A stretch of 64,000 nt of DNA from an uncultured Acidimicrobiia bacterium (GTDB lineage Bacteria > Acidobacteriota > Vicinamibacteria > Vicinamibacterales > UBA2999): the NCBI GenBank assembly GCA_963784445.1, contig CAWARO010000001.1, positions 833,133 to 897,132 of the forward strand, read 5' to 3'. Every line of letters begins with the position of its first letter. The stretch's first letter is position 1. The translations under genes were made by a program, and so were the position numbers. A model generated the notes under the pieces. That model had not been told where the DNA came from. It made no database searches and was given only the letters and a program-made list of their open reading frames with translations. This document shows positions 1,873 to 56,277 of the stretch, piece by piece.

Positions 1873-5796
<3,924 letters not shown>

Positions 5797-7636: not shown

Positions 7637-8683
7637 TTAACCAAATTTAAGTCTTGAACCACCTGCGGAGGTTACGGATCCCACAAAACTGGCCGAAATT
7701 CCAGCGTTTTCCAGGTTGGCGAAGACCGCATCTGCTGCTTGGGCGCCGACCGACAAGAGTAAGCCTCCCGATGTTTGAGGATCAAAAATCACATCCCGGC
7801 GGGCTTCCGATACGTCCCGACTAAATTCAATCCCCGCCGCAAAGTGCTCCCGGTTTGTATTCATTCCCCCGGACTTGTTTTCCGCGGTCATCGCCAGCAC
7901 GCCTGGGATGATCGGCAACGCGCTCGCGTCGAACTCGATCGTCACGTGACTGGCCGCGGCCATCTCCGATGCGTGACCCGCCAGGCCGAAGCCGGTGATG
8001 TCGGTGCACGCGTGAACGCCATCGCCGTTCGCGATGGCTTCCGCCGCTGCCTTGTTCAACGTTCGCATCTGCGCCACCGCAAGATCGATCACGTCCTGTG
8101 ACGCTCGGCCGAACTTGATCGCGGTGCCGACGATGCCGGTGCCGAGAGCCTTGGTAAGAATCAAACGATCGCCCGGCTTCGCGCCGGCGTTGGTGAGGAT
8201 GCGTTTGGGATCGATCGCGCCGGTGACCGCGTAACCAAATTTGATCTCGCGATCCTGCACCGTGTGACCGCCAAGTAACGCCACGCCCGCCTCGCGCAAC
8301 TTGTCGAAGCCGCCGCGAAAGATCTGCGCAATGTCGTCGGTGTGCAGGCCATCCTGCGGGAACGCCGCAATCGCCAGCGCCGTGAGGGGCCGGCCGCCCA
8401 TGGCATACACGTCACTCAGTGCATTCGCCGCGGCGATCTGTCCGTAGATATACGGGTCGTCGACGATCGGCGTGAAGAAATCCACCGTCTGCACCAGCGC
8501 CGGTCCACCCTCCCACGCGTACACACCAGCATCGTCCGCAGTCCTGTAGTCAACGAGGATGCGTGGATCCGATTGAACTGGTATGCCGCTCAGGACCTGA
8601 GCGAGCTCGCCGGCTGCGAGTTTGCTCGCTCAACCGGCGCAGCTGACCATCTCGGTCAGCCGGCGCCTTTGCTGTGTCGTCAT
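7637..8683 (-). CDS. selD: Selenide, water dikinase (selenophosphate synthetase), selenocysteine-containing; in-frame UGA at 8630-8632
   Basis: The ORF track starts at 8524. Reading upstream in frame gives [60 protein letters not shown]... . The U-x-x-K spacing matches the SelD active-site Cys/Sec-Lys motif. The ATG at 8683 overlaps the parB stop (ATGA). Confidence 0.85.
8587..8629 (-). promoter_or_regulatory. Candidate bacterial SECIS for selD
   Basis: The mRNA downstream of the UGA contains CGCUCA-GGUCC-UGAGCG (plus-strand 8587-8603). The GGUC apical loop resembles the E. coli fdhF SECIS loop, recalled from memory. Confidence 0.45.
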
Positions 8684-18080: not shown

Positions 18081-19454
18081 GTGATGCTAACCACGACCAT
18101 TTGGGACCAGGTCCTCAGCCGCATCGAAGGGCAGGTGGGCAAACACAGCTTTTCGACCTGGTTCAAACCGACCTCCCTGCTCGCAGACGGGGGGAGCAGC
18201 CTGCGGATCCGGGTTCCGAACCTGTTATTCGTCGAATGGCTCCCCAAGCACTACTCCGTGGTGCTGGCCGAGGCGCTCCGGGACGTGGGCCGCGGGGACG
18301 TGAAGCTGGTGTTCGTGCCGGATGCCTCTGGTGCTTCCGAGGAGGCTCGCGGGCAGTCGATCAGGGCGTCGGCCGCACCGGAATTCGAAGAGGCCGCCGA
18401 ACCCTCCCAGAGTGATGCGCCCGCCGAGCCGCAACGCGCCGGCAGCCTCATCCCCCGCTACACCTTCGACTCATTCATCGTCGGGCCGTCGAACCAGTTT
18501 GCGAATGCGGCGTGTCGCGCGGTGGCGGAAACGCCGTCGCGATCGTACAACCCGCTGTTTATTCACGGCGGCGTCGGATTGGGCAAGACGCACTTGATGC
18601 ACGCGATCGGCCACTACGTGGTGCAACATCACCCCGGCCTTGCGCTGACCTACATCTCGTCCGAGCGATTCATGAACGAGATGATTAACGCGGTGCGCTT
18701 TGATCGCATTCTCGATTTCAGGTCACGGTATCGCAGCGTTGACGTGCTGCTCGTGGATGACATTCAATTCGTTTCGGGCAAGGAAGGCACGCAGAACGAG
18801 TTTTTCCATACCTTCAACGCCCTGCATGACGCGCAGAAGCAGATCGTCATCAGCAGCGACCGTCCTCCCAATGAAATTCCTGCCCTGGAGGAGCGGTTGC
18901 GCTCGCGTTTCGAATGGGGATTGATTGCCGACATCAATCCGCCGGACATCGAGACCAAGGCCGCGATTCTGAAAAAGAAAGCCGAAGGCGAAGCGGTGCC
19001 GTTGCCCGACAACGTGGCGATGTATATGGCCAGCCGCATCAAGACCAACATCCGCGAGCTCGAGGGCTCGCTGATTCGCCTCATCGCGTATGCCTCGCTC
19101 ACGAGCAAGCCGCTCACCATCGAACTCGCACAAGACGTGTTGAAGAACGTGCTCGATCACGATGAGAAGGCGGTCACGATTGAGCAGATTCAGAAATACG
19201 TCGCCGATTACTACCAGTTGAAGCTGACCGAGCTGAAATCGCGCAACAACGCGAAGTCAGTATCGATGCCGCGCCAGGTAGCGATGTACCTGTGCAAATC
19301 GCTCACGCATGCATCGTTGCCGGAGATTGGCCGCAGTTTCGGCGGCAAACATCATTCGACGGTGATTCATTCCATCAAGAAGGTCGAAGAGATGCGGAAA
19401 AAGAGCGGCGACTTCGACAAACAGGTCAATAACCTGATGGATTCGTTCAAGTAG
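18081..19454 (+). CDS. dnaA: Chromosomal replication initiator DnaA
   Basis: 457 aa. AAA+ Walker A GGVGLGKTHLM. C-terminal DNA-binding domain (HSTVIHSIKKVE). Start is GTG at 18081 or ATG at 18084. Confidence 0.97.
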   Translation: MMLTTTIWDQVLSRIEGQVGKHSFSTWFKPTSLLADGGSSLRIRVPNLLFVEWLPKHYSVVLAEALRDVGRGDVKLVFVPDASGASEEARGQSIRASAAPEFEEAAEPSQSDAPAEPQRAGSLIPRYTFDSFIVGPSNQFANAACRAVAETPSRSYNPLFIHGGVGLGKTHLMHAIGHYVVQHHPGLALTYISSERFMNEMINAVRFDRILDFRSRYRSVDVLLVDDIQFVSGKEGTQNEFFHTFNALHDAQKQIVISSDRPPNEIPALEERLRSRFEWGLIADINPPDIETKAAILKKKAEGEAVPLPDNVAMYMASRIKTNIRELEGSLIRLIAYASLTSKPLTIELAQDVLKNVLDHDEKAVTIEQIQKYVADYYQLKLTELKSRNNAKSVSMPRQVAMYLCKSLTHASLPEIGRSFGGKHHSTVIHSIKKVEEMRKKSGDFDKQVNNLMDSFK

Positions 19455-37429: not shown

Positions 37430-37519
37430 GGAGAGGTGGCTGAGTGGTCGATAGCGGCGGTCTTGAAAACCGTTGAGCCTTCACGGGCTCCAGGGGTTCG
37501 AATCCCTTCCTCTCCGCCA
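37430..37519 (+). tRNA. tRNA-Ser (anticodon UGA), CCA encoded
   Basis: Hand-folded cloverleaf. Acceptor GGAGAGG/CCTCTCC. Anticodon stem-loop GCGGT-CTTGAAA-ACCGT. Long variable arm GAGCC-ttcacg-GGCTC. T-arm AGGGG-TTCGAAT-CCCTT. Confidence 0.9.
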
Positions 37520-46338: not shown

Positions 46339-47092
46339 TCACTTCTTCGGTATCGTCTTATCTAAATAGGCGCGAATCGTGTCGTAGGTGTGCGGCTGCA
46401 TCCAGGCATCGACGACGCGCGCGTTGAGATCGGCGAGCTGCTTCGTGCGTTGGAGGATCGGCGTGAAAAATGCCTCCTTCGTCAGCGCGAACGCGCCGGC
46501 AGGAATCGAGGCCAGCCTCTGCGCGACCTCGGTGGCACGGTCGAGGAGCATTCCGGCCGGGCACTTCTCGTCGATGAGCCCCATCGCCTTCGCCTCGTCG
46601 ATTTGCACGGTTCGTCCCGTGAACACGAGATCGCGAAGCGGGCCGTCGGCGAGACGCGCCGACATGATCTGGAGCGGCAAGGCCGGGAACGGCACACCGA
46701 CCGCGAGTTCAGGAATGCCTATGCGCCCGTTGCCCTCAACCATGATCCGATGATCGCAGGCGGCGGCCAGGATGCAGCCGCCGGCAATGGCGTGACCGTT
46801 GATCGCCGCCACCATGTGGTTTCGGGAAGGTCAACGCCGCGTGAAGAAAGGCGTCGAGGACCGGAAGAAAACGGCGCCCATATTCAGGTCCGTCATTCAC
46901 GACCCGATACAGATCGACGCCGGCGGAAAAAGCCGAACCTGAGCCGGTGACAATCACGGCCTTGATTGGCGCAGCGGCTGCGTCCGCTATTTCTCGCGTG
47001 AACGCCTCACCCAACTCGACGTCCATCGCGCTCACCTTGCCATGCGCGAGTTTCAGGACGCGGATGCCGTCGGTGTCTTTGCGCTCGATCAT
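46339..47092 (-). pseudogene. Enoyl-CoA hydratase/isomerase family, single frameshift near 46816-46820
   Basis: The N-terminal half (MIERKDTDGIRVLKLAHG...TFPKP) and the C-terminal half (MVAAINGHAIAGGC...) lie in different frames. Removing one base from ccgaaaccaCatggtg restores FPKPMVAAINGHAIAGG. Confidence 0.75.
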
Positions 47093-49426: not shown

Positions 49427-49951
49427 ATGCATCTGTTCCTTGCTCTCGTCCTGACCACCGCATTCCTTCCCTTCGACTCGGTTGACTCGACTCATCGAGT
49501 TAACCTCGCTCAGGGCGGGCAAACGGGCGCCGATCCGCTGTTATCCCGCCTGGCCGGCCAATGGACCGGGACGGGGACGGTGCTCAATCAACCCTCGAAA
49601 ATCCAGATGGCGTGGACCTGGGAACTGGGCGGCCGCTTCATTCGGCTGACGTTCCGCAATGAAATGGGCACCGCGCCGAAAGTCAACGTGTTCGAAGGCC
49701 ATGCCTATTACCGGCCGGTGGCCGACGGTCAGTATCGCGGCATGTGGTTCGACAACTCGGGCATGTTCCGGCCACTCGACGCGAAACGCGACGGCGACGC
49801 GCTCGTGTCGAAGTGGGGCACGCCCGATACCGAAGAAGGCGAGACGACTTACCGGCTCCGCGAAGACGGCACGATGGAAGTCGTCGATCGCGTGAAAGGG
49901 AAGGACGGCACCTGGCGCGACTTCGGCCGCGCCACGTATCGGCGATTGTAA
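49427..49951 (+). CDS. Hypothetical secreted protein (DUF1579-like, tentative)
   Basis: 174 aa. N-terminal hydrophobic segment. Contains LAGQWTGTGTV and FEGHAYYRP. Confidence 0.45.
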   Translation: MHLFLALVLTTAFLPFDSVDSTHRVNLAQGGQTGADPLLSRLAGQWTGTGTVLNQPSKIQMAWTWELGGRFIRLTFRNEMGTAPKVNVFEGHAYYRPVADGQYRGMWFDNSGMFRPLDAKRDGDALVSKWGTPDTEEGETTYRLREDGTMEVVDRVKGKDGTWRDFGRATYRRL

Positions 49952-49973
49952 AGGTGCCAGACCCCTTTACAAT
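49945..49973. terminator. Hairpin ATTGTAAAGG-tgccagacc-CCTTTACAAT (copy 1)
   Basis: 10-bp perfect stem overlapping the stop codon of the 49427 gene. A near-identical copy lies at 50047-50074. Confidence 0.45.
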
Positions 49974-50046: not shown

Positions 50047-50074
50047 TGTAAAGGTGCCAGACCCTTTTACAATT
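50047..50074. terminator. Hairpin TGTAAAGG-tgccagac-CCTTTTACA (copy 2)
   Basis: Same sequence as copy 1 with one extra T. Overlaps the stop codon of the convergent selenoprotein gene. Confidence 0.45.
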
Positions 50075-50717
50075 CAGGCAGCTCCAATACAGCTCTCACG
50101 TATTCCTGCTCCGGCAAGCCGCCCATGATCTCAATCGTCTCGTTGACGACCGTCTTCGGCACGCCGGTCACTCGGTACTTCCGGCTGAGATCCATGAATT
50201 CGGTGGCTTCAATCGCGTCGGCGGTGATGTTCGGGTTGGCCGCAGCCATCTTGTGTGCGAGGACGACCGCCCTCGGGCAGTGCGGTCAAGTTGGCGTGGA
50301 AAACACCTGGATGTGGGTGGGTTTGTTGACCGCCTGAATCCACTTCATCGTCTCGGGCTCGAGCTCGATCTTGCCCGTGCCGGCCGTGATGATGGCTTCG
50401 ACCAGGCCGACGAACTCGTATCCGGTCGGCGCGCCGAACATACGCATGCGCGTATCGACGTCGTCGCTCAGGATCACGATGGCCGGCGCCTTGTCGATCT
50501 TGTACTTCGCCTTGTCTTCCGTATCGAGGATGAAGTTCTTGTCGACAACGGTGATCTTGTTGTTCAGCGCGGCCAGCTCACCGAGGATTTGTTTGGTGAT
50601 GGTACCGGTTTCAGAGCCGCCAAGGGCTTGCGTGAACAGAACGACCTGGACTGGATTGGTGATGACAGAAAGGTGCTGCTTGAGTGTTGCTTCGTCTTGC
50701 GGAGAAAGAAGGGCCAT
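50067..50717 (-). CDS. Two-unit thioredoxin-fold protein disulfide oxidoreductase (PDO / AhpF-N-terminal-like), selenocysteine-containing; UGA at 50286-50288
   Basis: ORFs 50286-50717 and 50067-50249 are in the same frame, separated by one TGA. The joined protein reads ...THIQVFSTPT-U-PHCPRAVVLAHKMAAANPNITADAIEATEFMDLSRKYRVTGVPKTVVN... . This parallels the archaeal PDO motif VFVTPTCPYCPLAVRMAHKFAIEN, recalled from memory. Confidence 0.85.
50258..50275 (-). promoter_or_regulatory. Candidate bacterial SECIS for the UPHC oxidoreductase
   Basis: The mRNA reads CGAGGG-CGGUCG-UCCUCG starting 10 nt after the UGA. The apical loop contains GGUC. Confidence 0.4.
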
Positions 50718-50765
50718 ATCTGATTATGACGGGATCGGGGATCGGGGATCGGGGATCCGGAAAAT

Positions 50766-51254
50766 TCAGAACTTGAAGAGATCGTCGAAGGCTTTCTTGG
50801 CCCCGCTGGGCTCTTTTGGATTGTTGTTCTGGCTCACGGCCGTGGTGGTTTCCCGCTCCCAGGTGGTGCGGCCCGAGAAGTGCGGGCAGTCGTTCGCCAC
50901 GTCCTTGGGCGACACACGAGCCGTCAGCTTCACTGCACATTCGAAGGTGGTGCCCGGGTCGAAGTTCACGCACTGGACGCACGATCGCAAGTCGACCTGG
51001 CACTTGGGACACTTGCTGCGCGACATGATTTCGGCATCGACGATGGTGCCGCAGCGTGAGCAGCGCGCCACCTGGCGCGAGCCCATCATGCGAGGGTTGC
51101 GGGCGCCTTCGGAGGAGATGCGCCGAGCGCCGGCGGGCGCGCCTGGTTCGCGCTCCGGCTTGGCGCCACCGCTGTCGGGACGCGGCCCCGACGGTTTGCG
51201 ATCGCGGTTGTCGTCCTGGTAGCCGCGTTGACGATATTTTCGGTCGTCGCTCAT
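50766..51254 (-). CDS. Hypothetical Cys-rich zinc-ribbon protein with a basic disordered N-terminus
   Basis: 162 aa. Contains CSRCGT...CPKCQ...CVQC...C...C. No family recognised. Confidence 0.5.
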   Translation of the reverse strand: MSDDRKYRQRGYQDDNRDRKPSGPRPDSGGAKPEREPGAPAGARRISSEGARNPRMMGSRQVARCSRCGTIVDAEIMSRSKCPKCQVDLRSCVQCVNFDPGTTFECAVKLTARVSPKDVANDCPHFSGRTTWERETTTAVSQNNNPKEPSGAKKAFDDLFKF

Positions 51255-52923: not shown

Positions 52924-53129
52924 CGACGGTTGCGCGCTCGCCAGCGTTTCGAGACCGCCCGAGGCAAATCCCGTTGCGCCGGCCAGCGCCGCGCCGAAAC
53001 CAAGGAATTCTTTTCTGGAGAGTTTTCCATAGCGGGGGGAACTATACGCTAAACAGGGGTCGAGGTCCTGAGGACTTGGGACCCTGAGGGCTTACTGATT
53101 CAAGCCCTCAAGCCCAAGCCCTCAAGCCT

Positions 53130-56100
53130 TTAGAAGCGGCCGACCACCGTCAACTGGAACGCTCGCGCCGGCTGCTGATTGACCATCAACAGGAAGTTCG
53201 AGCTCCAGCTCTGATAGGCGCTGTTGTAGCTGTATTGCGTGTAGTCCCCACCATTGAGAAGGTTGAAGACGTTCCCCGCAACCTCGAGCTGGTAACGCTG
53301 ATACTGCAGGGTCTTGCCGATCTTCAGGCCGACCGTCGTGATCAGCGGCGCCTGCGACCTGCCCCTCGCCGCGGTCGCTGAAGACATAGCGATTGCGGGT
53401 CGCCAGCGGATTCGGGGCTGTTGATCCGTTCGCCAACGTGAACGTCGCGGGTCCGTACTTGAGGACGTCGGGATCGTTGGCCGCCAGCTGATACAACGGC
53501 GCTCCCGACCACGGCCCGGCCTGGAACGTGGCGCTGGCCGCGACGTTGATGCGCCAGGGAGCCTGCCACACGCCGCCGAGGTTGCCGCGGTACTTCATCC
53601 ACGTCGGACCGTAGCTCAACGCGTTGCCCGTGTCGGGCAGCGAGTTGCCGTCGTTGTTGCCGCGCGGCATGTAGAGATTGGCGTCATTCGCGAAGTGGTT
53701 CGGCTGCACGAAGCGCGCCGGGTCGGTCGGGTTCCACGTGCCGTCGATCTTGTGCCACTGCCGCGTGAAGCCGCCAATCAGCTGGAAGCCCCTCGACATG
53801 TTCTTCGTCGCTGTCACTTCAATAGCCTGGTATTTCAGCTGGCTCCAGGTGTTGTTCGTCTGCTGCTGGACCATGTCCCTGGTTCGGATCGACTCTGCCG
53901 AAACCTCCGAAGGGGAGACCCGGTGCGTCGGGATAGATGCCGTTGATGTCGATGTTCGCCCACATGTGCTTGTAGGCGCGGTTGATGTAGCCCACGTCCA
54001 GGCCAATCTGCCAGCCGAACTGCCGGCGGAATCCGACGATGAACTCGTCGAGGTACGGCTGGTGCAGGCCGGGCGCGATCTGCTGGCCGGCCAGGGCGGT
54101 CGCTCGATGCCGGCAGCGAGCTGCGTGGTCTCGAACGTGCCGTTGAGGTCGTTGTCGTACTCGCGGCGGAACGACACCGTATCATCCGCGCCGAAAATGG
54201 TGACGCCGTCGCGGCCCATGACCTGTTCTCCCAGGCGGCCGTAACTGGCGCGCAGCACGTTCTTGGCATCGTTGGTCAGGAGGTAGGTGGCGCCAATCCG
54301 TGGCTGCACCGACCAGGATTTCTGCCGCGTGATGTCTCTCACTTCGTCAACCCGCTTGACGTAGTCGAACCTGATCCCGACGTTCGCCGTCAACCGATCG
54401 TTCGGCCTCCAACTGTCCTGGAGGTAGAAGGCGTAGTTGCTGTCGCGGGCCTGGCGCGTTTGCAGGCTGATCGGATTGGCGTAGTCACGCCGATAGGGCC
54501 GCGTGCCTCGCGATGGGTCGTTGACGTCGACCACCGTCTGGAACTCCCGGAAGAAGCCGTCGTTCGTGTACAGCGTGACCTGATCGTAGATGTTCTGCGG
54601 TTCCAGGAAGAACCCCGTTCCAAACTCGTGGTTGCCGGCCCAGCCGGCCTTGTAATACGTCAGGTCACCGCGAATCAGGGAGAGCGAGGCCGGGCACGTT
54701 GGTGCGAGTCGCGTTGTTGCCGCCCTCGAGGATCAGCGAGTTGCCGGTGATGAAGCCGCTCGAGATGCGCGTGCCGTCGTAAATGTTGATGTTCGGTCCC
54801 TGGGCGTTGAACCCGAACGCCTCGTAGGTGTCGTTGTCGTTGCCGCGCTTGTTGTTGTAGCCGGCCGAGAACGTCGTCGTCATTCTGTCGCCCCACGTCG
54901 ACGTGAGCTTGGCGTTGTAGACGTTCCCGCCGTTCGAATAGACGTTGATCGGATCGAAGTAGGTACTGCCAGTTGCTCTGGCCGTGCGTGCGGTCGCGCT
55001 GGAAGAACCCCGACAACTCGTGGGCGGCGCCGAGCACGCGACGTGACCTTCACGTACGGCTGGTAGCCCTTGATCTCCTGGGGGAACAACTCAGCGTTGG
55101 GATAGTAGCTCTTGATGTCGTTGACGTTCTTCGAGTTGCGGCTGATCTGGGTCTCGACCGCCGACTTGCGGAACGACGTGAAGAACCAGACGCGATCCCT
55201 CATGATCGGCCCGCCGAACGAGCCGTCGAACTGGCCGATCTTGGCTTGCACCGGCGTGCCGCCGGTGGTGGTGCATTCCTGGTTGGGGCAGGTTGTATGC
55301 TGGCCGAGCGGCGTCCCAGAAAGGTTGAACACGGTCTTGTGGTGGGTGTTGTTGCTGACCCAGTTGAGCGGCTGGTATGCGTACCCGGCGGTCCCCCTGA
55401 ACGTGTTGCCGCCGCTCTTGGTGATGACGTTGATCGCCAGGCCGGTGCCCATCGGCGTCGACGCGTCGGACCCGCCGGTCTTGACCTGGGTGTCCTGGAT
55501 CATGTCCGACCCCATCTGCACGTAGGTGAGCTGGAAGTCGTTGTAGTTGCCCGCCTGCATGCCTTCGAGCTGCACGACGTGGGCGAAGTGTTCCGTGGCG
55601 TGCCCGAAGTACACCGATCGCCCGCTGCCGTCATCGAACGGTCGCGAATGGACGCCGGGCGTCTGCTCGAGGAAGTCGGTCCAGTTCTTCCGGGCGGCAA
55701 GCGGCATCTGTTTCTGGAACTCGCCGTCGATGTTCAGGATGTTGCCGGGCTTGCTGACCTCGAGCATGGGCGAATCGCCCGTGACGGTGATGGTTTCGGC
55801 CACGGCGCCGATCTCGAGGACGATGTCGACTTGAAAGTTCACGCCGCCGCGCAGCACGATTCCCGTGCGTTGGTAGTTCCGGAACCCCTGGAGCTCCGCG
55901 GTGACGGCGTAGTCGCCGGGAGGCAGGTTGATCAGACGGTAGTAGCCGGTCTCGTCGCTGACGCCGGTTGCCGGCGTGATCATGTTGGGGCTGGTTGCGG
56001 TGACCGTGACACCAGGCAGCACGCCACCCTGGTTGTCTTTGACGTAGCCTCGCAGGCTGCTGCCCGTGGGCTGCGCCTCCGCCAAGTACACGCCCGCACT

Positions 56101-56145
56101 CAATACAACGAGCAGGCAAATCCCGAATCGCAGAACACGTCCCAT
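53130..56145 (-). pseudogene. TonB-dependent receptor with an N-terminal CarboxypepD_reg domain; at least 6 frameshifts
   Basis: Signal MGRVLRFGICLLVVLSAGVYLAEAQ. Contains GVTVTATSPN...ETGYYRLINLPPGDY. C-terminal beta-barrel ends ...AFQLTVVGRF. Homologous segments tile five ORF-track pieces in different frames. Shifts lie near 55040, 54960, 54690, 54105, 53878 and 53355. Confidence 0.8.
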
Positions 56146-56277
56146 GGCGATTCCTCCCTGCCGACAGAACAAAGTCACGAGCCCGAGGGGCCGCGGTTAA
56201 CGACGACGTGGAAACTCCGACGACGAAGCGAGATCTTACGAGGCGGATGATACTGCGATACCGAAGCTCGGAGAAAG

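What the first reader, a model, noticed from the sequence alone, without database searches (positions are those of the whole stretch)
50067..50717. Thioredoxin-fold PDO/AhpF-N-like oxidoreductase with selenocysteine in the redox motif (U-P-H-C), split in two by the ORF track
- Two minus-strand ORFs (50286-50717 and 50067-50249) share a frame and are separated by a single TGA at 50286-50288.
- Read-through gives one 216-residue protein with two thioredoxin-fold units.
- The TGA sits exactly where the first Cys of the CPxC active site is expected (VFSTPT-U-PHCPRAV).
- Ten nt downstream, the mRNA can form CGAGGG-CGGUCG-UCCUCG with a GGUC-containing loop, the position and loop type expected for a bacterial SECIS.
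- A Sec-containing selD lies in the same window.
- From memory, comparative-genomic surveys list an AhpF-N-terminal-domain-like UxxC selenoprotein class, so the family may not be new. An automated annotation would still miss it here.
Basis: partly seen in the sequence, partly recalled or inferred. Interest (0 to 1): 0.8.

Follow-up and report, generated by a model that had tools for sequence, protein, structure and literature searches.

The report
Selenocysteine PDO-type thioredoxin-fold oxidoreductase gene
This is one real gene for a small redox protein whose active site uses selenocysteine encoded by UGA, so gene callers cut it in two; the protein family is already a catalogued selenoprotein class, which makes this a well-supported but ordinary new member from soil Acidobacteriota.

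Summary
On the minus strand, 50717-50067 is one 216-codon frame interrupted only by TGA at 50288-50286, giving STPT-U-PHCP. With Cys in place of U, the joined protein scores 233 bits (cutoff 185) on NCBIfam TIGR02187.2 "PDO_seleno_TRX". It aligns end to end with the solved PDOs 1J08 and 1A8L.

- Nine full-length homologues carry Cys opposite the UGA.
- Of 82 orthologous sequences (Vicinamibacterales, Acidobacteriota), 79 keep TGA and 3 are independent Sec-to-Cys reversions.
- Ten nt after the UGA lies a 7-bp hairpin with a GGUC loop (50275-50258). It meets all four published bacterial SECIS criteria.
- Four codons inside the hairpin show no synonymous variation in 77 distinct sequences, and one base pair covaries (G-C 42, C-G 37, none mixed).
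- Translation continues past the UGA under purifying selection.
- selD in the same window (7637-8683) also carries an active-site UGA followed by a G-U-containing hairpin.
- TGA terminates 22 of 52 predicted genes, so the genetic code is standard.
- selA, selB and tRNA-Sec are not in the window.

[quoted passage not shown] Verdict: a new member of a known kind, widely mis-annotated as a 143-aa fragment.

The parts
50067..50717 (-). Complete coding sequence of the selenoprotein: 216 codons plus TAA stop at 50069-50067, start ATG at 50717-50715
   Evidence: single frame. (TIGR02187.2 233 bits, cutoff 185, residues 7-212). (1J08/1A8L, E about 1e-31, residues 1-211). (homologues start MxLLS).
50286..50288 (-). 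UGA codon 144, read as selenocysteine; first residue of the U-P-H-C redox motif (50288-50277)
   Evidence: Cys aligns here in 9 of 9 full-length homologues. TGA in 79 of 82 orthologous sequences and TGC/TGT in 3.
50258..50275 (-). SECIS hairpin: 5' arm 50275-50269 (CGAGGGC), loop 50268-50265 (GGUC), 3' arm 50264-50258 (GUCCUCG); starts 10 nt after the UGA, with the loop 17 nt after it
   Evidence: it is the only RNAalifold consensus helix. (98.9% of cells paired versus 24-64% when slid; 0 of 500 shuffles reach the observed value). (no synonymous variation in codons +5 to +8; CCG/CTC versus CCC/CTG perfectly linked). (-10.8 kcal/mol). Criteria from PMC13188914.
50373..50717 (-). N-terminal thioredoxin-like unit (about residues 1-115) with no CxxC; SETG lies where P. 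furiosus and P. horikoshii PDO have CQYC
   Evidence: alignment to 1J08/1A8L. (no conserved Cys in this unit).
50085..50315 (-). C-terminal thioredoxin unit (residues 135-211) carrying U-P-H-C and the GVPK cis-Pro loop
   Evidence: PF13192 Thioredoxin_3, 67 bits, residues 135-211. (V186-P187-K188 invariant).
7637..8683 (-). selD (selenophosphate synthetase), itself a selenoprotein: Sec codon at 8632-8630 and hairpin CGCUCAG-GUC-CUGAGCG at 8603-8587, loop 33 nt after the UGA. This is the only Sec-pathway gene in the window.
   Evidence: 39% identity to E. coli SelD; U18 aligns to Cys17. (AIRS/AIRS_C). (TIGR00476 345 bits, cutoff 125). (fold).
50766..51254 (-). Upstream same-strand gene for a 162-aa Cys-rich protein with a sub-threshold rubredoxin-like zinc ribbon; conserved neighbour and possible operon partner. 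Its function is unknown and its link to the selenoprotein is inferred only from gene order.
   Evidence: PF23470 22 bits, below the cutoff of 26. (present directly upstream in at least 62 of 74 loci). (same order in L001 and in the Cys-form locus L082).

Best explanation
Window 50717-50067 (minus strand) is a single gene for a 216-residue cytoplasmic protein disulfide oxidoreductase. It belongs to the PDO / AhpF-N-terminal-domain-like family (TIGR02187). The protein has two fused thioredoxin folds and a single redox centre, in the second fold.

UGA codon 144 is decoded as selenocysteine. The elongation factor SelB, loaded with Sec-tRNA(Sec), would be recruited by the 7-bp GGUC-loop hairpin that starts 10 nt downstream, inside the coding sequence. 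The ribosome then inserts Sec and continues for 72 more codons.

The product would carry a selenenylsulfide/selenolthiol couple (U144-x-x-C147). Sec sits in the N-terminal, attacking position of the CxxC-type motif.

Shown here:
- One continuous frame.
- Family membership.
- Cys/Sec correspondence.
- Conservation and covariation of the hairpin.
- Protein-level selection downstream of the UGA.
- A Sec-containing selD in the same window.
- UGA otherwise used as a stop codon.

Inferred from established knowledge of the family:
- Actual Sec insertion.
- SelB binding.
- The physiological role. By analogy with archaeal, Aquifex and Thermotoga PDO/Grx-like proteins and with the AhpF N-terminal domain, it probably accepts electrons from a thioredoxin-reductase-type flavoprotein and passes them to peroxiredoxins or other disulfide substrates.
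For: - Frame and motif.
- Family: TIGR02187.2 'PDO_seleno_TRX' 233 bits against cutoff 185, profile positions 3-208 of 209; Thioredoxin_3; 1J08, 1A8L, 2AYT, 2HLS, 6IL7, AhpF 1HYU/1ZYN.
- Cys opposite the UGA in 9 of 9 full-length homologues at 57-68% identity.
- Codon census: 79 TGA against 3 Cys codons among 82 orthologous sequences from Vicinamibacterales/Acidobacteriota MAGs.
- Synonymous constraint: codons +5 to +8 (AGG GCG GTC GTC) are invariant in 77 distinct sequences, while neighbouring four-fold degenerate codons have entropy 1.0-1.9 bits. Arg is AGG in 76 of 76 at this position but CGC/CGG at the other Arg positions.
- Covariation: CCG...CTC in 41 loci and CCC...CTG in 37, with no mixed combinations.
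- Consensus fold: RNAalifold returns only this helix. The pair count is 98.9% paired, 24-64% when slid, and 0 of 500 shuffles reach it.
- Pair-preserving replacements: two amino-acid changes inside the stem keep pairing. L044 AGG to GGG gives G-U, and L061 GUC to GCC gives G-C.
- Reversions: three independent nested Sec-to-Cys reversions all carry changes in the otherwise invariant block. Two have weakened hairpins (-6.4 and -7.8 kcal/mol against -10.8 or better in all 79 Sec forms), and one refolds in another register.
- Distant clade: L079 and L081 keep TGA with a different 6-7-bp hairpin at the same place, and their Cys sister L080 has a stem mismatch.
- Downstream selection: mean pairwise differences at codon positions 1/2/3 are 0.154/0.112/0.415, and the frame stays open for 70-85 codons in 82 of 82 sequences.
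- Genetic code: TGA is the stop of 22 of 52 predicted genes.
- selD-Sec with its own hairpin.
- bSECIS criteria (3-9-nt loop, 4-16-bp stem, G in the first two loop positions, 16-37 nt spacing, MFE at or below -7.5 kcal/mol) from PMC13188914 are all met.
Against: - selA, selB and tRNA-Sec are not in the 64-kb window. The rest of the genome could not be examined.
- The hairpin is not significant on the single sequence (z = -0.62).
- No Rfam family matches it. Rfam has no general bacterial SECIS model, so this carries little weight.
- Covariation rests on one base pair and only about 1-2 evolutionary events.
- No redox partner (TrxR or peroxiredoxin) is encoded nearby, so the physiological role is by analogy only.
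- No experimental evidence of Se incorporation exists here.
Confidence: 0.93

Rival explanations
1. Two genuine separate genes. UGA is a real stop that yields a 143-residue single-domain protein, and the 60-residue thioredoxin-like ORF (50249-50067) is translated independently from its own ATG.
For: This is what gene callers output for more than 100 relatives and for L001 (143 aa plus 61 aa). An ATG exists at 50249.
Against: - The 12 codons between the UGA and that ATG encode the conserved PHCPRAVVLAHK, with synonymous variation at codons outside the hairpin. They are therefore translated in this frame.
- Both fragments would lack the redox motif, and the second would lack beta-1 and alpha-1 of its thioredoxin fold.
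- Cys-form relatives are single 217-226-aa proteins.
- The frame relationship is kept in 79 of 79 TGA sequences.
Confidence: 0.03
2. UGA is read through without the Sec system, for example by near-cognate tRNA-Trp or tRNA-Cys or by a local recoding signal. The active site would then hold a standard amino acid, and the hairpin would simply stimulate read-through.
For: Sec machinery other than selD was not seen in the window. Hairpins downstream of stop codons can stimulate read-through in other systems (general knowledge).
Against: - The UGA sits exactly at the catalytic Cys of a family already listed as a UxxC selenoprotein.
- selD in the same window carries UGA at its own catalytic Cys position, with a G-U-containing apical loop. 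SelD-Sec makes sense only in a Sec-decoding organism.
- The hairpin fits the SelB-type bSECIS model in loop sequence and spacing.
Confidence: 0.03
3. A pseudogene or an assembly error. The TGA would be a recent nonsense mutation or a miscalled base in a Cys codon.
For: The window does contain at least one apparent frameshift, in the enoyl-CoA hydratase gene near 46816, so sequence errors or pseudogenes do occur here.
Against: - The same TGA is present in 78 other independently assembled sequences.
- The downstream frame is intact and under purifying selection.
- Hairpin conservation is specific to the TGA forms.
Confidence: 0.01

Closest known systems
[quoted passage not shown] An example is ABB15282.1 of Carboxydothermus hydrogenoformans, and it also occurs in Symbiobacterium thermophilum. 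Listed in PMC13188914 Table 1 and PMC1794560.
   Same: - Same NCBIfam model, matched above its cutoff.
- Same UxxC motif, with Sec as the first residue.
- One Sec per protein.
- In-frame SECIS immediately downstream.
   Different: - The lineage is Vicinamibacterales (Acidobacteriota). Cultured members are aerobic soil bacteria (from my own knowledge), whereas the named examples are thermophilic anaerobic or microaerophilic Firmicutes-type organisms.
- Here the Sec form is the rule in the sampled clade: 79 of 82.
- I did not compare sequences directly with ABB15282.1.
Archaeal and Aquifex protein disulfide oxidoreductases (P. furiosus PDO 1A8L, P. horikoshii 1J08, A. aeolicus 2AYT/2YWM, A. pernix 2HLS)
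   Same: Two tandem thioredoxin folds, alignable over residues 1-211 (E about 1e-30). The C-unit motif sits at the same place (CPYC versus UPHC), as does the cis-Pro loop.
   Different: - The N-unit CxxC (CQYC in 1A8L and 1J08) is replaced by SETG, so there is only one redox centre.
- Sec replaces the first Cys.
- His replaces Tyr in the dipeptide.
N-terminal domain of AhpF (S. typhimurium 1HYU/1ZYN, E. coli 4O5Q)
   Same: Two-fold thioredoxin-like domain with a single CxxC, in the second fold. Homology is detectable (E about 1e-11 to 1e-12; TIGR03140 73 bits). The CxHC-type dipeptide with His is shared (from my own knowledge of the AhpF CHNC motif).
   Different: This is a stand-alone protein with no FAD/NADH thioredoxin-reductase-like module. 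It scores 73 bits against a cutoff of 503, so it is not an AhpF. No ahpC is nearby.
E. coli fdhF-type bacterial SECIS
   Same: A hairpin inside the coding sequence just 3' of the UGA, with an apical GGUC-type loop with G-U exposed, at a spacing within 16-37 nt (the fdhF loop sequence is from my own knowledge).
   Different: The stem is short and perfect at 7 bp, with no bulged U. The distant clade (L079, L081) uses a different loop, CGUGUC.

Membership tests
NCBIfam TIGR02187 PDO_seleno_TRX (protein disulfide oxidoreductase; the selenoprotein class 'AhpF N-terminal domain homolog') | Whole-protein HMM score above the curated cutoff, over the full length | tested here: met
   233 bits against a cutoff of 185; residues 7-212 on profile positions 3-208 of 209 (U replaced by C for scoring).
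NCBIfam TIGR02187 PDO_seleno_TRX (protein disulfide oxidoreductase; the selenoprotein class 'AhpF N-terminal domain homolog') | Two tandem thioredoxin-like units in one chain | tested here: met
   Full-length phmmer alignment to solved two-unit PDOs 1J08 and 1A8L (query 1-211 to chain 1-222, E about 1e-31). No structure prediction was run.
NCBIfam TIGR02187 PDO_seleno_TRX (protein disulfide oxidoreductase; the selenoprotein class 'AhpF N-terminal domain homolog') | U/CxxC redox motif in the C-terminal unit, with Sec aligned to Cys of homologues | tested here: met
   TPT-U-PHCP versus TPT-C-PHCP in 9 of 9 full-length homologues. Aligns to CPYC of 1J08 and 1A8L.
Archaeal-type PDO sensu stricto (PfPDO-like) | A second CxxC active site in the N-terminal unit | tested here: not met
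   SETG aligns to CQYC of 1A8L and 1J08. No conserved Cys occurs in the N-unit across the clade.
AhpF (alkyl hydroperoxide reductase subunit F) | C-terminal FAD/NAD(P)H thioredoxin-reductase-like module; score above the TIGR03140 cutoff | tested here: not met
   The protein ends at residue 216. TIGR03140 gives 72.9 bits against 502.9, matching only profile positions 8-182. The JGI label 'AhpF' on the truncated relatives is therefore a misnomer.
Bacterial SECIS element (bSECIS consensus model, PMC13188914 Fig. 2) | Apical loop of 3-9 nt on an upper stem of 4-16 bp | tested here: met
   4-nt loop and 7-bp stem.
Bacterial SECIS element (bSECIS consensus model, PMC13188914 Fig. 2) | G in one of the first two loop positions, followed by G or U | tested here: met
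   The loop is GGUC, invariant in 77 of 79 TGA forms. The selD loop is GUC.
Bacterial SECIS element (bSECIS consensus model, PMC13188914 Fig. 2) | 16-37 nt between the UGA and the apical loop | tested here: met
   17 nt (10-nt spacer plus 7-nt arm). selD: 33 nt.
Bacterial SECIS element (bSECIS consensus model, PMC13188914 Fig. 2) | MFE at or below -7.5 kcal/mol | tested here: met
   -10.8 kcal/mol for the window; -10.8 to -18.0 in all 79 Sec forms.
Bacterial SECIS element (bSECIS consensus model, PMC13188914 Fig. 2) | Binds SelB and directs Sec insertion | not testable with these tools
   Needs a binding or reporter assay. The indirect support is evolutionary: constraint is specific to the TGA forms.
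Sec-decoding trait of the host genome | selD present | tested here: met
   TIGR00476 345 bits against a cutoff of 125, and the gene itself contains Sec.
Sec-decoding trait of the host genome | selA, selB and tRNA-Sec (selC) present | not testable with these tools
   None is in the 64-kb window: ARAGORN and Rfam find only tRNA-Ser(UGA), and the Pfam scan of 40 large ORFs finds no SelA or SelB domains.

The most novel reading that the evidence does not exclude
The Sec-PDO and the Cys-rich, rubredoxin-like zinc-ribbon protein encoded directly upstream (50766-51254) could form a conserved two-gene redox module peculiar to Vicinamibacterales. The selenoprotein would service, or be serviced by, the metal-binding Cys protein. 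In that case the Sec form would be an ancestral, near-universal selenoprotein of a mainly aerobic soil lineage, which would run against the usual association of thiol-oxidoreductase selenoproteins with anaerobes. My data show only the gene adjacency (at least 62 of 74 loci) and the 79-of-82 prevalence of TGA. There is no functional link.
Probability: 0.15. Interest if true: 0.4.

Novelty: new member of a known kind. Interest (0 to 1): 0.25.

Why it matters
**Annotation.** The gene is systematically mis-annotated. More than 100 of the 120 closest database entries are 143-residue fragments, labelled 'hypothetical' or 'AhpF', and none is a full-length Sec product. Correcting this restores a redox-active protein to the proteome of Vicinamibacterales, an order widely recovered in soil and freshwater metagenome bins.

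**Selenium biology.** It shows that this clade decodes Sec: selD-Sec and this PDO lie within 42 kb of each other. The Sec form has been stably retained, with only three reversions among the sampled genomes.

**A teaching example.** The locus illustrates an RNA element constraining a coding sequence. Four codons are frozen at synonymous sites, Arg is fixed as AGG, and synonymous Pro/Leu third positions covary.

It does not open a new kind of biology. The family, the motif and the mechanism are established.

Tried and rejected
- **Rfam.** Gathering thresholds on the whole window gave only tRNA-Ser. A permissive scan of 50150-50350 gave only chance-level hits with E of 0.8 or worse. This is uninformative, because no general bacterial SECIS family is curated there.
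- **Single-sequence folding.** Not significant (z = -0.62). I dropped it in favour of comparative evidence.
- **Search for selA and selB in the window.** I scanned 40 predicted proteins with Pfam. ORFs of SelB-like size (613, 617 aa) and SelA-like size (441, 468 aa) turned out to be GlmS, MnmG, MnmE and GlmU. tRNA-Ser with anticodon UGA at 37430-37519 is an ordinary serine tRNA, not tRNA-Sec.
- **First motif search for selD.** The pattern [C*]G[CA]K failed because the motif here is U-A-S-K. tblastn then found the gene.
- **Extended lower stem.** The single-sequence MFE suggested one, but RNAalifold does not support it.
- **Alternative genetic code.** Rejected: TGA ends 22 of 52 predicted genes.
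- **Redox partner in the neighbourhood.** No TrxR or peroxiredoxin was found.
- **Upstream Cys-rich protein.** Only sub-threshold zinc-ribbon matches.
- **Literature on Vicinamibacter and selenocysteine.** Nothing relevant.
- **Not run.** I skipped structure prediction and fold search, because the full-length sequence match to solved PDOs already settles the fold.
Full report
**1. The observation**

On the minus strand the window reads ...CAG GTG TTT TCC ACG CCA ACT TGA CCG CAC TGC CCG AGG GCG GTC GTC CTC GCA.... The ORF list gives 50717-50286 (143 aa, ending in this TGA) and 50249-50067 (60 aa) in the same frame. Translating 50750-50067 shows the TGA at 50288-50286 as the only interruption. 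Read-through gives 216 residues with the motif VFSTPT-U-PHCPRAV. The 12 codons between the TGA and the second ORF's ATG complete the CxxC-type motif.

**2. Family**

With Cys in place of U, the joined protein matches NCBIfam TIGR02187.2 at 233 bits (cutoff 185) over essentially the whole profile. NCBI now names this model "PDO_seleno_TRX, protein disulfide oxidoreductase". The matches to AhpF models are far below their cutoffs and cover only the AhpF N-terminal domain.

Pfam sees Thioredoxin_3 at residues 135-211. Against the PDB, the best matches are the two-thioredoxin-fold PDOs of P. horikoshii (1J08) and P. furiosus (1A8L), at E about 1e-31 with query 1-211 aligned to chain 1-222. After them come Aquifex and Aeropyrum PDOs, a Thermotoga Grx-like protein, and the AhpF N-terminal domains.

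In that alignment the C-unit CPYC aligns to U/C-PHC. The N-unit CQYC aligns to SETG. This protein therefore has a single redox centre, as the AhpF N-terminal domain does.

**3. Cys/Sec correspondence and annotation status**

A search of 5.8 billion proteins returned two classes. One is full-length proteins of 217-226 aa at 57-68% identity. The other, much larger, is 142-159-aa products at 85-97% identity that stop at the TGA. These are labelled 'hypothetical protein' by NCBI or 'alkyl hydroperoxide reductase subunit AhpF' by JGI.

All nine full-length proteins have Cys opposite the UGA (TPT-C-PHCP). No full-length Sec-annotated product appears, although one would outrank everything else. On a syntenic 5.9-Mb contig the gene is called as 143 aa plus a separate 61-aa 'Thioredoxin_3' ORF.

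**4. Comparative test in named genomes**

A scan of one genome per GTDB species gave 80 loci, nearly all labelled Vicinamibacterales, Acidobacteriota or Acidobacteria, at 56-93% protein identity. A few carry other labels such as Acidimicrobiia or Bifidobacteriaceae, which look like bin mislabels. Together with L001 and the window there are 82 sequences: 79 have TGA at the active-site codon and 3 have TGC or TGT.

A neighbour-joining tree built without the hairpin codons places the three Cys forms (L062, L072, L080) separately inside TGA clades. This implies three independent Sec-to-Cys reversions.

Downstream of the UGA, mean pairwise differences at codon positions 1/2/3 are 0.154/0.112/0.415, against 0.252/0.163/0.446 upstream. 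The frame stays open for 70-85 codons in all 82 sequences. This is the signature of a translated, selected reading frame. It excludes both the pseudogene reading and a real stop.

**5. The SECIS element**

Ten nt after the UGA lies CGAGGGC-GGUC-GUCCUCG, at 50275-50258. On the single sequence it is the centroid structure, but the overall fold is not significant (z = -0.62). The comparative evidence is strong:

- **Synonymous constraint.** In 77 distinct main-clade TGA sequences, codons +5 to +8 (AGG GCG GTC GTC) show zero synonymous variation, while flanking four-fold degenerate codons have entropies of 1.0-1.9 bits. Arg is AGG in 76 of 76 here, but CGC or CGG at Arg +35 and +38.
- **Covariation.** The third positions of Pro +4 and Leu +9 covary perfectly: CCG...CTC in 41 loci, CCC...CTG in 37, none mixed. 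This switches a G-C pair to C-G.
- **Consensus fold.** RNAalifold on the 79 TGA sequences returns exactly this helix and nothing else.
- **Pair count.** 98.9% of cells are paired, against 24-64% when the partners are slid by 1-3 columns. None of 500 shuffles reaches the observed pairing or covariation score.
- **Pair-preserving replacements.** Two amino-acid replacements inside the stem preserve pairing: L044 Arg to Gly makes G-U, and L061 Val to Ala makes G-C.
- **Decay in the Cys forms.** All three Cys forms deviate from the frozen block. L080 and L072 fold at only -6.4 and -7.8 kcal/mol, whereas all 79 Sec forms fold at -10.8 or better. L062 breaks the register and refolds with a different loop.
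- **A second solution.** The most distant TGA sequences (L079, L081) have a different 6-7-bp hairpin with loop CGUGUC in the same place.

The caveat is that the covariation involves one pair and probably only one or two evolutionary events.

Measured against the published bacterial SECIS model (PMC13188914 Fig. 2), the element meets every criterion:

| Criterion | Required | Observed |
|---|---|---|
| Apical loop | 3-9 nt | 4 nt |
| Upper stem | 4-16 bp | 7 bp |
| G in the first two loop positions | yes | GG |
| UGA-to-loop spacing | 16-37 nt | 17 nt |
| MFE | at or below -7.5 kcal/mol | -10.8 kcal/mol |

**6. Sec machinery and genetic code**

selD lies at 7637-8683 (minus). It sits in an origin-proximal block, yidC-mnmE-mnmG-rsmG-parA-parB-selD-atp, with dnaA at 18081-19454. 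It has TGA at 8632-8630 in SCAG-U-ASK, which aligns to Cys17 of E. coli SelD. The part after the UGA scores 345 bits on TIGR00476, whose cutoff is 125. Thirty-three nt after the UGA it has the hairpin CGCUCAG-GUC-CUGAGCG.

TGA terminates 22 of the 52 predicted genes, so the code is standard. selA, selB and tRNA-Sec are not in the window. This is the one refutation condition I could not test.

**7. Mechanism**

The supported reading is standard bacterial Sec insertion. SelB with Sec-tRNA(Sec) would bind the GGUC hairpin as the ribosome reaches UGA-144. Sec is inserted and translation continues. The product is a stand-alone, single-centre PDO/AhpF-NTD-like oxidoreductase, with Sec as the attacking residue and Cys147 as the resolving residue.

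By analogy with archaeal, Aquifex and Thermotoga PDO-type proteins and with AhpF, it most likely shuttles electrons from a thioredoxin-reductase-type flavoprotein to peroxiredoxins or protein disulfides. That step is inference. No such partner is encoded nearby.

The only conserved neighbour is an upstream same-strand 162-aa Cys-rich protein with a sub-threshold rubredoxin-like zinc ribbon. It is present in at least 62 of 74 loci.

**8. Comparison with what is known**

The class is already catalogued. [quoted passage not shown] ABB15282.1' appears among the selenoproteins 'predicted with high confidence' in the 2026 review (PMC13188914). It is also reported in Carboxydothermus hydrogenoformans and Symbiobacterium thermophilum (PMC1794560).

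What is new is modest:
- The Vicinamibacterales lineage.
- The near-fixation of the Sec form there.
- The very clean SECIS constraint.
- The scale of mis-annotation.

I found no paper linking Vicinamibacter to selenocysteine.

**9. Verdict**

This is a new member of a known kind. Interest is about 0.25.

Noticed in passing
window 50047-50072 and 49947-49972: A 26-nt palindromic element, TTGTAAA(A/G)GGGTCTGGCACCTTTACA, occurs twice, 100 nt apart, in the space between the convergent PDO gene and the 174-aa DUF1579-like gene (49427-49951). The TAA inside each copy serves as the stop codon of one of the two genes. None is expected by chance. Only 1 of about 80 relatives (L003) has an exact copy. 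It may be a REP-like element or a bidirectional terminator.
   Followed up: partly
window 50731-50757: A perfect heptamer repeat, (GGGATCG) x 3.9, fills most of the 48-nt leader between the upstream Cys-rich gene and the PDO start. Relatives have different short repeats there (L001 GGATCC-like, L005 GGGAACY-like) or none, so the leader is hypervariable.
   Followed up: partly
window 50766-51254 (-): A 162-aa Cys-rich protein (CxxC-13-CxxC-6-CxxC...) with a disordered basic N-terminus and a conserved C-terminus AKKAFDDLFKF. It has only sub-threshold rubredoxin-like zinc-ribbon matches (PF23470 22 bits, cutoff 26; PDB 2GMG E 0.009). It lies directly upstream of the PDO gene in at least 62 of 74 related loci.
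   Followed up: partly
window 7637-8683 (-): selD is itself a selenoprotein: TGA at 8632-8630, with the SECIS-like hairpin at 8603-8587. Its ATG overlaps the parB stop (ATGA). A gene caller would start it at a downstream Met, or would call only the 330 codons after the UGA.
   Followed up: yes
window 46342-47092 (-): The enoyl-CoA hydratase gene is split by a frameshift near 46816. Residues 1-92 of the L001 orthologue match frame -1 (47092-46817), and residues 93-250 match frame -2 (46815-46342). This is either a pseudogene or a single-base assembly error.
   Followed up: partly
window 53122-56178 (-): A TonB-dependent-receptor-like gene appears fragmented into three ORFs: 54880-56178 with a CarboxypepD_reg N-terminus, 54665-54883, and 53122-54534 with beta-barrel pieces. 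This may be another frameshift or assembly artefact.
   Followed up: no
L062, L072, L080 (about position 3430 in each): Three independent Sec-to-Cys reversions are nested within TGA clades. Each is accompanied by synonymous changes in the otherwise invariant hairpin block. This serves as a natural control, showing that the RNA constraint is tied to the UGA.
   Followed up: yes
L079 and L081 (about positions 3433 and 1798): The most divergent TGA-containing orthologues (56-57% identity) use a different hairpin, (C)GCGAGC-CGUGUC-GCUCGC(G), at the same distance from the UGA. This suggests SECIS turnover within the family.
   Followed up: partly
window 1-26000: The window spans the chromosomal origin region: yidC, mnmE, mnmG, rsmG, parA, parB, selD and an F-type ATP synthase operon on the minus strand. 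dnaA is at 18081-19454, followed by further large plus-strand ORFs.
   Followed up: no
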